Shown in pieces: positions 3,111-53,704 of a stretch of 62,782 nt of DNA; the first letter of the stretch is position 1; every line of letters starts with the position of its first letter. The notes under the pieces were generated by a model. It did no database searches. It saw only the letters and a program-made list of their open reading frames with translations, and was not told the DNA's origin. The position numbers and the translations under genes are program-made. Source of the DNA: Negaprion brevirostris (taxonomy: Eukaryota); the NCBI GenBank assembly GCA_030324005.1, contig JARDVH010000099.1, positions 63,157,418 to 63,220,199 on the forward strand. The letters are read 5' to 3'.

Positions 3111-3969
3111 TGGGGGACATTGCAGAAGAACCCAATGACATCTTCACCCAATACATACACGCTGCATGTGCATCCACATATATACCATGCACACACGTTC
3201 CAGCAGAAATCTTGATCTTATTCCCCTTCCATCATCCACAGAAATTGGGCCAACCACAGTTTGTGCCCAACAGCTTTCATAGCTGAGATCAACCAACCCA
3301 GACTGTAGTAATGAAACCTGGAAACTTCTGTATTGCTTAGTATTACAAGACACCACAAAAAAGCGCATAACTTGTACTTACATCACTGATTTATTTCTTC
3401 TTACATAATCCCTAGCATATACTGAAACCTCATTTTGATTCTAAGACTAATTTTATTGCCACAAATATGGTATACTTAACTTTCAATAATGATATTTCCT
3501 GGTATGTTTAATGTGAAGATATCAAAAATGACTTCTACTCATCTGAAACAGGCATATATCTCATTTCATTGGAGTTTGGGTTGCATACTAATCAGTGCTT
3601 CATTAACCCTGGCCTAGATTTGATTCAGGAATAACGTTTTTGTTACACAGTAGTGAAACATAACTATGTACAGGACATGAGGTACAGGATACAACAGCAC
3701 AACTATATTGGTTAGATCCTTCGTAAATATTTCAATGCATAATCAGTTCTAGTATATTGCACTGTATCAGCATCAGAGAGAATTAACTGAGNNNNNNNNN
3801 NNNNNNNNNNNNNNNNNNNNNNNNNNNNNNNNNNNNNNNNNNNNNNNNNNNNNNNNNNNNNNNNNNNNNNNNNNNNNNNNNNNNNNNNNNNNNNNNNNNN
3901 NNNNNNNNNNNNNNNNNNNNNNNNNNNNNNNNNNNNNNNNNNNNNNNNNNNNNNNNNNNNNNNNNNNNN

Positions 3970-4281
3970 GTGCAGCCTTTTGCGGCAACAGCCTCTCTCT
4001 CTCTTTCTCTCTCTCACTTTCCCAATGCTGAATATTGATTCGTATTATAAATGTTGTCAAACATGGTACACAGTTCAGCAGATCCAGAGTGGCAGGTCGT
4101 CAGCAGCAGCATTAGCAGATGTCAGGTCAGGAATCAAAGGGCCTGCTGGACGCTTTGGGGATGAGATTCATCGATTCTATAAAACCATGAAACAGATCAA
4201 GCACTTGAAATGATGGAAGCGGTCATGGCAGAATGAGGATGAACCTTCCTACATGATCGTCCCAGGAGAAAAGCTTCATGT
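3970..4281 (+). other. Candidate first exon ending ATG-T|GTAAGT
   Basis: Non-repeat stretch after a (CT)n run; consensus GTAAGT donor at 4282; ATG at 4278-4280 leaves phase 1. No transcript evidence. Confidence 0.3.
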
Positions 4282-49766: not shown

Positions 49767-50736
49767 ATGTTTTTTTCTGATTGGCAGACAGTGACTAGTG
49801 GGGTTCCACAGGGATCTGTGCTAGGACCCCAAATGTTTACGTTATATATTGATGATTTGGAAAAGAGAGCTGAATGTATTATCTCCAAATTTGCAGACTA
49901 TACAAAGTTGGGTGGGAGGCTGAGCTCCGAGGAGGATAGAAAGATGCTTCAGTATGATTTGGATAGGCTGAATGTGTGGGCAATTGCATGGCAGATGCAG
50001 TATAATGTGGATAAGATCATAAGATCTGGGGGCTGAATTAGGCCATTCAGTCCAAAGCATCTGCTCTGCCATTCAATCATGGCTGATATGATTGTCATCC
50101 CCATTCTCCTGCCTTCTCCCTGTAACCCCTGATTCCCTTATTGATCAAGAATTATCTATCTCTATCTTAAAGACACTCAATGATTTGGCTTCCACAGAAT
50201 CAGCACCCTCTGGCTGAAGAAATTCCTCCTCATCTCAATTTTAAAGGAGCATCCCTTCACGCCGAAGTTGTGCCCTCCAGGTCTGTGACTAGTGGTGTGC
50301 CACAGGGATCAGTGCTGGGTCCATTGTTGTTTGCCATCTATATCAATGATCTGGACAATAATGTAGTAAATAGGATCAGCAAGTTTGCTGATGATACAAA
50401 GATTGGAGGTGAAGTGAGGAAGGTTTTCAATGCTTGCAGAGGGATTTGGACCAGCTAGAAAAATGGCAGATGGAGTTTAATGTAGACAGGTGTGAGGTTT
50501 TGCACTTTGGAAGGACAAACCAGGATAGAGCATAGAAGGTAAATGGTAGGACACTGAAGAGTGCAGTAGAACAGAGGGATCTGGGAATACAGATACATAA
50601 TTCTCTAAAAGTGGCGTCACAGGTAGATAGTGTCATAAAGATTACTTTTGGAACATTGGCTTTATAAATCAAAGTATTGAGTATAAGAGTTGGAATGTTA
50701 TGGTGAGGTTGTATAAGACATTGGTGAGGCTGAATT
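49767..50736. mobile_element. CR1 cluster: plus RT fragment (49767-50015), minus 3' end (50016-50280), second plus RT fragment (50281-50736)
   Basis: [10 protein letters not shown] occurs twice, with ISKFADYTK and ISKFADDTK. Confidence 0.9.
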
Positions 50737-50928
50737 NNNNNNNNNNNNNNNNNNNNNNNNNNNNNNNNNNNNNNNNNNNNNNNNNNNNNNNNNNNNNNNN
50801 NNNNNNNNNNNNNNNNNNNNNNNNNNNNNNNNNNNNNNNNNNNNNNNNNNNNNNNNNNNNNNNNNNNNNNNNNNNNNNNNNNNNNNNNNNNNNNNNNNNN
50901 NNNNNNNNNNNNNNNNNNNNNNNNNNNN

Positions 50929-51617
50929 ATTGTGATCATTTCAGAAACAGCCAGTTCTGGTATTTCATTGCAAGCAGATCGCAGGGTTAAGAACCAAAGG
51001 CGGCGATTGTAAATGACCTTGGAATTGCCTTAAAGTGCAGATAGTGCTGTTTAGCAATTTGGTAGAACGCATCGATCAAACCAAGTGACTTCTCCTGAGT
51101 ATGTTATTCTCACCTTGGAATTGGCAGGAGAAGACAGAGTCTCACCTATTGTTGCAAAGACTTGCAAGTTTGGGTGCTCTCACACATGGTGACAAGACAA
51201 GCCACTGACACCATAGATTTGATGACACGTATGGAAGAAATACCTTGGAAATAGTGATGAAGTTCATCGTAAATCTGGACCGTCCACTGGTGTCTTCACC
51301 CAAAGACTATGTTGGGGATTTTTTTTAAAGATGTTCAACAGGGATTAATTAGTGTGGATTTGATAAATGTGGAAGAGCATTTAGGACAGCTCACATTGGA
51401 TAAAGATTATAATAGAGTTGGGAAATTTCTGAATTGAATCCTTAGCATGGAGGTACATCAGCAGAACACACTCTTCCAGTATTTTTCAGACACTTTAAGC
51501 GCTGTAATTCAGAATGCTAAGAGGAATGGGATACATAATATGGGAATTTTAGATTTGGGTTCTGGGGATGAGAAGGTGAAGAAAGTAGAAGCAAAGAAAT
51601 TCCTAACCCCAGGGTAT
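50929..51617 (+). pseudogene. SBNO1: Processed pseudogene fragment of strawberry notch homolog 1
   Basis: Reads [90 protein letters not shown]...[23 protein letters not shown], matching recalled vertebrate SBNO1 rather than SBNO2. Intronless; stops at 51010, 51031, 51052 and 51435; frameshifts, including the T-run at 51319-51326. Confidence 0.92.
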
Positions 51618-51623
51618 TTTGTT

Positions 51624-51979
51624 TTCTAACAGCATTAGACAGGGGATATTCAGAAAGATTGATCCCAACAGTGGAGGGACCCCAGTCATAGATTGAAGAT
51701 AAGGGGTATACCTTTCAGAACTGATGTGAGAGAAATTTCTTCACCCAGAGAGCAGTGAATATGTGGCATTCACGACCACAGAATGTAGTTGAGGCCAAAA
51801 CATTGTCTGATTTCAACAAGAAATTAGATATAGCTCTTTGGGCTAAAGGAATCAAGGGATATAGGAGGAAAGCAGGATCAGGATATTGAATTCAATGAAC
51901 AGCCATGATCTAGATGAATGATGGAACAGGCTCTAAGGGCCAAATGGCTACTCCTGCTTCCAGTTTTTATGTTTCTATG
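51624..51979 (+). mobile_element. CR1 3' end abutting the SBNO1 fragment
   Basis: ttctaacagcattagacaggg...gaggccaaaacattgtctgatttc...tttatgtttctatg; reverse-complement match to the 3' ends of 4485-5244 and 5583-6500. Confidence 0.9.
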
Positions 51980-52146
51980 TCAAGTGCTTTTATTAATAAG
52001 TCATTTTGTACAAACATTCAAACTTAAAGATTTATTTAAGAACAGTAACAATATTTTGTTTATTAAAACAATTTTTGGAAATAGTTCCAAGATATGTATT
52101 TTTATGATTGATAGCATTTTTCCCCATGTATCGCATTTTTCCCCAG

Positions 52147-52170
52147 GTCGCAGCAGGTTTGGGCTGAGGG
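52147..52170 (+). CDS. Candidate 24-nt microexon (phase 1-1, xRSRFGLRG)
   Basis: tttttccccag acceptor, G|GTGAGT donor, frame-preserving and phase-compatible with 56055. Confidence 0.45.
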
Positions 52171-53704
52171 GTGAGTGAATACAGCCTCACTGTGAAAAAG
52201 ATTGGCATGTGGCAACCCAGAATCATGTGCATCATGGTCAAATGCAACATGCTGCTTTTCTTACATTACTATGACAACACTAGCATTGAGACAACTTCTC
52301 CCATTTTCACCTACTCGGCATTTCTATTTTGCTCAAGGTTCTTACAACAGCCGGGAAATTCTGAATTTGTGTCAATTGGAGGGCAGTTTCATGCACTCAA
52401 CATNNNNNNNNNNGACAGTACTTTAAAAATATAAAGAAAAGCTCTCACGCCCATGTTCACAGGAAAGACTACTGGACATTGAGAATCTTCTTTAAAAATC
52501 AAATCTTTTTGCTCCACATACCCTTTCTGGATAACAAAGATTGACTTTAGACACTCCATCATGCATCAGCCAAAGACATACCCAACAGAAGAGAAGCATG
52601 GCCTCTAACTGGCGGCTGCTTGTTCCAAGTGGTAAATCAACTATCCTCTAATAAATCCTCTATAGAGTTAATAATTGGACCCTTGTCATGTGGACAGAAT
52701 TACATGAAACATAAAGCCTTGTACTGATACAACTTAGGATACTCAGGAAATATATACGGTGTCAAAATGCCATTCTCCCCCTTCAAATTCTCAGCATGTT
52801 GAAATCAAAACCCCAAATGAACGATTTCAGGTTATAAAAATCTCTCTAAAATTGTGGATATTGGAGTCCTGTTACCTTTGCATACCACTTTGTTTCTCTT
52901 TTCATATGTGACTCCTGGTTTTCACTGGAAGGAACACACGATCTGCTGTTTTTTCCTGAGTGCCCAAAAGTCCCCAACAAATTTAGGTATTACACGGGCA
53001 GTCACCGAGTCCATTTCTTCTGCATTAAGACGCCATCAATAGGACCAGCTCATCACAAAGGCCGCAGACTGTGTTATCAATGTAAAACCTCTCATCCTTT
53101 GTTAGCAGCTCGCGATTTCCTCCAACAAACTAAACGTTTTTAAGTTCCCATCGCCTACCCTGTACCTCTCTTGTCTATGATTTACAACGTTATCAATTTC
53201 TTTAATTCTATCACAGTACACAAGATACTAAAAATGAACTTCATTCAGAAAATTTGCTCTGGAATATTATTAGAAATGTCACAGATTTTAGTTGTTTTTA
53301 TCTTGGAAATTCAATTGAAATTCCAGTGTGTTACAGGATCCATAAATTGTGTTGCAAGTGCTTTGTTAATTTAACACATGGTTTTTCATATTTCTTTGAT
53401 CCCAGTCATCTTCAGGATGTTGGTTCTCTGTCTGGTCCAATTCCAGGAGCCTCTGAAAAGTGAAAATCTGGCAAAATCACTTGCAGTTAAGTTTAATGAC
53501 TAATATACAGTTTGGCTTTGGAATTATTACAACTCATTCATTTCTTTACCTATTTAATAAATTTGTTTGGCTGTTTTACAGAATTTACAGCAGAGGAATA
53601 GACCACTCAGACCTATGTTCTATGTTCAAGTTTATGCTCCACATCAGCCTCCTCTCATCCCACTTCATCGGCATAAGCTTCTTATTCCTTTCTATTTCCT
53701 TATT

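What the first reader, a model, noticed from the sequence alone, without database searches (positions are those of the whole stretch)
49767..51979. SBNO1 mRNA fragment apparently captured inside a CR1 LINE
Seen: ~690 nt of intronless, disabled SBNO1 CDS stops mid-gene (..FLTPGY) and is joined within ~6 nt to a same-strand CR1 3' end. There is no poly(A), and SBNO1 does not resume after the CR1 tail. The upstream CR1 piece 49767-50015 matches the same subfamily and strand as that 3' end. Known: CR1 RTs recognise their own 3' tail and rarely make ordinary retrocopies. Inference: RT primed on the CR1 tail, switched to SBNO1 mRNA and possibly back, giving a route to retrocopies in CR1-dominated genomes. 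The left junction is hidden by the gap at 50737-50928.
Basis: partly seen in the sequence, partly recalled or inferred. Interest (0 to 1): 0.72.

Follow-up and report, generated by a model that had tools for sequence, protein, structure and literature searches.

The report
SBNO1 gene copy with CR1 tail
A dead, intron-free piece of the strawberry-notch (SBNO1) messenger RNA is fused to the tail of a CR1 jumping gene in a shark-like genome and was likely pasted in as one piece, which would mean that an enzyme thought to copy only its own RNA jumped onto a host message; it does not sit inside a CR1 as first proposed.

Summary
The fusion is real; 'captured inside a CR1' is not supported. Window 50929-51622 is spliced, disabled SBNO sequence, 88% like an intron-containing parent, cut mid-exon and joined to a 358-nt CR1 3' end with no poly(A). 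The hidden left end lies on another scaffold (C1), whose contig overlaps the window's by an exact 52 nt and adds 913 nt of spliced SBNO1; contigs from two related species support the join. The complete insert is [SBNO1, 5'-truncated]-[CR1 tail], bracketed by an 11-of-12 direct repeat (chance 0.02-0.5%). The parts have similar ages (10.2% at 0-fold sites, 11.5% CR1). Best reading: one CR1 insertion with one template switch onto SBNO1 mRNA (0.65). Against it: plain copies of this CR1 showed no long duplication (0 of 15), no empty site was seen, and one relative's contig failed to lay on the C1 piece. The genome also makes ordinary poly(A) retrocopies (EF1A), so this is not its only route. The mechanism is known for U6-L2, tRNA-CR1 and mRNA-L1 chimeras; I found no mRNA-CR1 case in 7 paper searches. 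This scan has noted similar mRNA-CR1/SINE fusions on other cartilaginous-fish DNA (unchecked notes).

The parts
50929..51622 (+). 3' part of the processed SBNO (SBNO1, name recalled) copy: 7 exons, 6 introns lost, disabled, ending at nt 70 of an exon
50929..50980 (+). 52 nt identical to the end of contig G000:C1:84944341-84959472 (minus strand). That contig carries 913 nt more spliced SBNO1 (to C1:84945305) and the left repeat (C1:84945317-84945306)
   Evidence: the only cross-scaffold end-to-end overlap among 143 gap-flanking ends
51623..51624 (+). SBNO1/CR1 junction. Parent and CR1 share 2 nt here, and the copy has one other letter: a 2-nt microhomology plus a later change, or one untemplated base
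   Evidence: bridged by X14 record 12 (51470-51759, 0 differences) and X5 record 26 (31 nt past the junction)
51623..51980 (+). 5'-truncated CR1 3' end (ORF2 C-terminus, 3' UTR, two 8-nt tail units); 41 of 356 sites (11.5%) differ from the majority of its 29 nearest fetched copies
51981..51992 (+). right copy of the candidate target-site duplication, 11 of 12 identical to C1:84945317-84945306, which lies 0-6 nt before the first SBNO1 base
   Evidence: tail-to-flank join bridged in X14, X16 and X1
49767..50015 (+). CR1 RT fragment of the same subfamily as the tail; a neighbour on the scaffold, not part of the chimera
   Evidence: (RVT_1)
50010..50280 (-). 3' end of another CR1 subfamily in reverse; not part of the chimera
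   Evidence: 74.8% to the family majority
50281..50736 (+). CR1 RT fragment of another subfamily running into the N stretch; not part of the chimera
   Evidence: 68.2%; no listed piece of X5 record 26 or X16 record 19 lies on 50560-50736

Best explanation
This is a dead two-part retrocopy, about 1.6 kb of spliced SBNO1 mRNA fused mid-exon to a 358-nt CR1 tail, that was likely written into the genome in one event by a CR1 reverse transcriptase that started on its own tail and likely switched once onto the SBNO1 message. Shown: spliced origin, mid-exon junction, intact CR1 end, no poly(A), a 5'-truncated SBNO1 end beside unique DNA, an 11/12 direct repeat around both parts, similar divergence of both parts, and presence in related species. 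Inferred: CR1 ORF2p nicked the target, primed on the CR1 tail, copied about 358 nt, jumped at a 0-2 nt microhomology to an internal point of a spliced SBNO1 mRNA, copied about 2.1 kb towards its 5' end (about 1.6 kb remain after a later deletion), and integrated, duplicating 12 nt. The copy then likely decayed neutrally and took separate internal deletions in different lineages. The CR1 fragments left of the window's N stretch are likely scaffold neighbours only.
For: Twelve exon-exon joins without introns, 6 in the window and 6 on C1, over about 50 kb of parent. Exact 52-nt contig overlap with C1. X7 record 12 carries C1-side SBNO1 and, through a deletion, letters matching window 51429-51456 at 27 of 28, against 26 of 28 to the parent, sharing two letters with the window copy. 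X11 record 1 covers L026:1176-341 and runs 503 nt further. X7 and X11 contigs join the C1 flank to the SBNO1 5' end. Direct repeat 11/12: 3 of 16045 background positions reach it, and 1 of 210 mismatched CR1 end pairs reach its score. No repeat of that length and match left of the window gap. Divergence 101/992 at 0-fold sites (10.2%) against 41/356 for the CR1; non-CpG Fisher p=0.25. 4-fold sites 19.1%, about twice the 0-fold figure, as expected for a copy dead from birth. No splice acceptor before the CR1 start. No such CR1 in the gap-free 1.6-kb parent intron that follows. Template switching by stringent LINEs is documented for U6-L2 and proposed for tRNA-CR1.
Against: 0 of 15 usable plain copies of this CR1 show a duplication scoring above 6, against 9 for the chimera, so a 12-nt duplication is atypical for this family. 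In X7 and X11 the left repeat has two other letters, giving 10 of 12 against our right copy, which 53 of 16045 background positions reach. No empty site was seen. A silent filter may explain this, or a split of the locus in some lineages. No same-species contig bridges 50929 (X14 has a hole there). The copy is deletion-prone (one deletion here, another in X7), which helps the two-step rival. Some of my exon donor limits were off by a few bases, so the divergence figures are approximate.
Confidence: 0.65

Rival explanations
1. Two steps: an ordinary poly(A) SBNO1 retrocopy came first. A 5'-truncated CR1 later inserted into it, and the 3' part of the copy was lost with the insertion or by a later deletion or CR1-CR1 recombination. 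The direct repeat is chance.
For: The genome makes poly(A) retrocopies (EF1A). CR1 copies of this subfamily are very common (7501 first-look candidates) and often about 400 nt long. The copy has taken independent deletions. This CR1 family shows no long duplications (0 of 15).
Against: It needs a chance 11/12 repeat at exactly both ends (0.02-0.5%) and a deletion that stops at the CR1 tail. Ages do not differ. The junction and the tail-flank join are the same in the runs that cover them.
Confidence: 0.2
2. One insertion, but from an RNA already joined before reverse transcription: RNA ligation, trans-splicing, or an SBNO1 transcript ending in an intronic CR1 and shortened by an internal jump.
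For: It explains the single repeat equally well. Ligation and trans-splicing are proposed for L1 chimeras. A same-sense CR1 lies in a later parent intron (C133:48353319-48352428) with its 3' end in a gap.
Against: The junction is mid-exon with no acceptor in the CR1. The next intron is gap-free and has no such CR1. The later intronic CR1 is only 71-73% like the family's long copies and would need about 5 exons to be skipped.
Confidence: 0.11
3. One reading: CR1 tail, then SBNO1 mRNA, then back to CR1, so that SBNO1 sits inside one CR1.
For: 49767-50015 is the same subfamily and strand as the tail. Double jumps are described (PMC2104539 abstract). X5's upstream 2721 nt are unaccounted for.
Against: SBNO1 runs on 913 nt on C1 to a repeat in unique DNA, also in X7 and X11. 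Two other CR1s lie between. No listed piece of X5 record 26 or X16 record 19 lies on 50560-50736 (that table keeps the longest pieces).
Confidence: 0.04

Closest known systems
U6-L2 and U6-Mon-1 chimeras of platypus, U6-LINE chimeras of Anolis, one gapped U6-CR1 in turkey (Doucet et al. 2015, PMC4476161; passages and section 10 read)
   Same: 5'-truncated cellular RNA fused to a short 3' piece of a stringent LINE, one duplication around both, explained by template switching
   Different: Here the partner is about 1.6 kb of spliced protein-coding mRNA and the LINE is CR1. The repeat is 12 nt, against 1-9 nt reported for U6-L2.
Human mRNA/LINE-1 5' chimeras (17 in hg38; bioRxiv 10.1101/2025.02.02.635956; passages read; supplements not seen)
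   Same: spliced mRNA 5' of a LINE in sense orientation, one duplication
   Different: Those use relaxed L1, often include first exons, often join at splice sites to long L1s. Here an internal, 5'-truncated, mid-exon piece joins a short CR1 tail.
PittSINE: tRNA head on a CR1-derived tail (Suh et al., bioRxiv 10.1101/081950; passages read)
   Same: CR1 RT proposed to switch template from a CR1-tailed RNA to a cellular RNA during target-primed reverse transcription
   Different: tRNA, not mRNA; it founded a SINE family, whereas this copy is single and dead.
Tripartite LINE chimeras (Gogvadze et al. 2007, PMC2104539; abstract read) and LTR-flanked retrocopies (Tan et al. 2016, PMC5131818; passages read)
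   Same: template switches at microsimilarity give partial gene copies without poly(A)
   Different: Those have two switches or element sequence on both sides; this one has element sequence on the 3' side only.

Membership tests
Processed pseudogene (retrocopy) | introns of the parent lost | tested here: met
   12 exon-exon joins
Ordinary L1-type processed pseudogene | 3' end at the mRNA poly(A) site with a poly(A) tail | tested here: not met
   ends mid-exon, followed by the CR1 tail; no A-run
Bipartite template-switch chimera (RNA-LINE 3' end) | cellular RNA fused in sense to a LINE piece that keeps its 3' terminus | tested here: met
   junction on single contigs of X14 and X5
Bipartite template-switch chimera (RNA-LINE 3' end) | one target-site duplication around both parts | tested here: inconclusive
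   11/12 repeat, 3 of 16045 and 1 of 210 by chance; 10/12 with the X7/X11 letters; 0 of 15 plain copies show one; no empty site
Bipartite template-switch chimera (RNA-LINE 3' end) | both parts of the same age | tested here: met
   10.2% (0-fold) against 11.5%; non-CpG p=0.25; low power
Bipartite template-switch chimera (RNA-LINE 3' end) | joined during reverse transcription rather than before it | not testable with these tools
   splicing not supported; ligation cannot be told from a switch by sequence
Tripartite chimera / mRNA captured inside a LINE | same element on both sides of the mRNA piece within one insertion | tested here: not met
   the 5' end is SBNO1 beside unique flank
CR1-clade LINE | RT-bearing family with a short-repeat 3' tail and 5' truncation | tested here: met
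   RVT_1 in a same-subfamily piece; shared 8-nt tail unit in 29 copies. The clade name CR1 is recalled; no repeat library was at hand.

The most novel reading that the evidence does not exclude
In cartilaginous fishes CR1 reverse transcriptase repeatedly duplicates host genes by priming on its own tail and switching onto mRNAs. Tail-capped, poly(A)-less retrocopies would then be a real class, missed by poly(A)-based screens, and 'stringent' LINEs would not be barred from making retrogenes.
Probability: 0.3. Interest if true: 0.65.

Novelty: new variant of a known kind. Interest (0 to 1): 0.42.

Why it matters
The usual account is that CR1's need for its own 3' sequence limits which RNAs it can copy (PMC5470649 passages, citing Suh 2015, which I did not read). 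A multi-exon mRNA pasted with a CR1 tail shows a way round that rule and gives a countable signature: a CR1 tail in place of poly(A). As a single dead copy it has no function of its own. It is also an old presence/absence marker with lineage-specific deletions, and it flags a likely scaffolding error between C1 and C99.

Tried and rejected
PDB search gave no result (wrong frame) and the Atlas was unavailable, so SBNO1 versus SBNO2 rests on recall. A duplication to the left of the window gap: best 9 of 10, overlapping the tail unit, rejected. SBNO continuation after the tail or beyond the C1 gap: none. Second genomic copy: none; only the window, the parent's exons and the C1 overlap were hit. 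Collapsed duplicate: X14 depth is 4.9-5.8 over copy, tail and flank, like single copy (weak, contig depth). An alternatively spliced template for the skip at C1:84945180/176: rejected, because X11 keeps the preceding exon spliced on (26 of 30 to the parent), so it is a later deletion. Empty site: none in X5, X7, X11 or X12; X7 and X11 carry the insertion, and X5 and X12 barely cover the stretch, which is no evidence. More CR1-tailed copies: 5 families searched (14-3-3, Ribosomal_S2, HSP90, GAPDH, EF-Tu D3), and 5 candidate loci were looked at. These gave 1 poly(A) EF1A copy, 2 old HSP90 fragments without a CR1 tail beside them, and 2 loci not resolved (L122, L123); 0 had a CR1 tail. These searches score only the best candidates. 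A first, crude duplication scan of the 29 CR1 copies was replaced, where 14 of 29 were dropped (3 unaligned, 11 with N at an end or an unseen 5' end).

Full report
Setting. The window is G000:C99:63157418-63220199 in a 2.69-Gb, heavily gapped assembly. CR1-type LINEs and tRNA-type SINEs point to a cartilaginous fish (recalled, not tested).

The gene part. Window 50929-51622 matches seven exons of one parent gene on C133 at 82-90%. The parent exons have AG/GT(GC) limits, and the copy joins them without introns (80 of 672 sites differ). It has stops and frameshifts. Parent exons hit Helicase_C_4 and AAA_34 (5 of 6 queries were SBNO exons; 4 of them passed the cut-off). SBNO1 rather than SBNO2 is recalled. 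The copy ends at nt 70 of an exon. The CR1 3' end follows within 0-2 nt; parent and CR1 share 2 nt at the join, with one letter changed in the copy. The CR1 ends in two 8-nt units at 51980. The following 424 nt hit only themselves. X14 (0 differences over the junction) and X5 carry the junction on one contig; X14, X16 and X1 carry tail and flank, X16 and X1 on to 53400.

The hidden left end. The same search returned C1:84944341-84944392, identical to the first 52 nt after the window's gap and itself beside a gap. It is the only cross-scaffold end-to-end overlap among 143 gap-flanking ends; two within-scaffold overlaps of 32 and 27 nt were also found. On C1, spliced SBNO1 continues for 913 nt with six more exon joins. 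Two of the parent's own exons sit on a third scaffold, C42, while C133 has a 3.9-kb gap where they belong, so such misplacement is likely in this assembly. In run X7 one 155-nt contig holds C1-side sequence and, across a deletion, letters that match window 51429-51456 at 27 of 28 (26 of 28 to the parent). In X11 one contig covers L026:1176-341 and runs 503 nt further. Both runs join the C1 flank to the SBNO1 5' end. A silent filter would explain it; a later split of the locus in some lineages is not excluded. Either way the ancestral insert is the same. The skip of several exons on C1 is a later deletion, since X11 keeps the previous exon.

One insertion? A 12-mer at 51981-51992, directly after the tail, matches C1:84945317-84945306 at 11 of 12, 0-6 nt before the first SBNO1 base. 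Chance: 3 of 16045 positions or 1 of 210 mismatched CR1 end pairs. Caveats: X7 and X11 have two other letters in the left copy (10 of 12; 53 of 16045), and 0 of 15 usable plain CR1 copies (of 29 fetched, of 40 listed) show anything as long. Ages agree: 101 of 992 0-fold sites (10.2%) against 41 of 356 CR1 sites (11.5%), non-CpG p=0.25. 4-fold sites differ at 19.1%, as expected if the copy decayed neutrally from birth while the parent drifted only at silent sites. The 29 CR1 copies are best hits (6.4-12.3% from the majority), so they may be biased young.

The upstream CR1s. 49767-50015 is the same subfamily as the tail (88.1% against 89.3%), but a reverse CR1 end and a CR1 of another subfamily follow it. 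No listed piece of the two contigs that extend left of 50929 lies on 50560-50736. The three-part model is therefore not supported.

Mechanism. Shown: structure, junction, ends, ages. Inferred: CR1 ORF2p primed on its own tail, copied about 358 nt, switched once to a spliced SBNO1 mRNA, and stopped in an internal exon (0.65). Rivals: later CR1 insertion plus deletion (0.2); RNA joined beforehand (0.11; no acceptor in the CR1, next parent intron free of such a CR1, a more distant intronic CR1 has its end in a gap); three-part capture (0.04).

How general? Five gene families gave one conventional EF1A retrocopy ending at the parent's 3' end in an 8-nt A-run (95% identical, one intron lost) and two old HSP90 fragments without a CR1 tail; none had a CR1 tail. 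So a poly(A)-type route exists in this genome, and retrocopies look scarce in this small sample.

Known. CR1 specificity limits retrocopies (PMC5470649, passages; PMC3747384, passages, which lists shark HE1/HER1). Template-switch chimeras with stringent LINEs are known for U6 (PMC4476161, passages and section 10) and proposed for tRNA-CR1 (10.1101/081950, passages). mRNA-L1 chimeras are catalogued in human (10.1101/2025.02.02.635956, passages; supplement not seen). Double jumps: PMC2104539 (abstract). LTR route: PMC5131818 (passages). Seven searches of the open library listed no mRNA-CR1 chimera by title or abstract; most subscription papers are outside that library. Earlier notes of this scan report SFR1-, RGP1- and TIAL1-CR1 and METTL6-, MTFR1- and WEE2-SINE fusions in other cartilaginous fishes; they are unchecked leads, not support.

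Verdict. A real, old, dead bipartite mRNA-CR1 chimera; a new variant of a known kind. Interest 0.42; 0.65 if a genome-wide count shows a class.

Noticed in passing
L121:4061-4630 (G000:C59:82874060-82874630): Ordinary EF1A retrocopy, about 95% like its parent (L111), one intron lost, ending in an 8-nt A-run at the parent's 3' end; 5' end in a gap.
   Followed up: partly
L120:~3700-4200 minus; L119:~3999-4136 minus: Two old HSP90 fragments that appear intron-less (read by eye), with no CR1 tail beside them.
   Followed up: partly
L035/L036 (G000:C42:9658795-9659360): Two intact SBNO exons with their intron lie on C42 while the rest of the gene is on C133, which has a 3.9-kb gap there: likely mis-scaffolding.
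   Followed up: partly
L026:341-10000 and beyond (G000:C1:84944341-84959472) versus window 50929: A 15-kb contig on C1 likely belongs next to window 50929 on C99; which scaffold is wrong is open. X5's 2721 nt upstream of 50929 are unexplained.
   Followed up: partly
L026:1176-1180 and L026:669: The copy took independent internal deletions at short shared letters: several exons in this genome, about 780 nt in X7. Usable as phylogenetic markers.
   Followed up: partly
window 52140-52180: A short stretch flanked by acceptor-like and donor-like letters just right of the insertion; may be a micro-exon or chance.
   Followed up: no
L123 (G000:C149:1300066-1300536): Two close Ribosomal_S2 hits in a 187-aa open frame; a large exon or an intact retrocopy, not resolved.
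   Followed up: no
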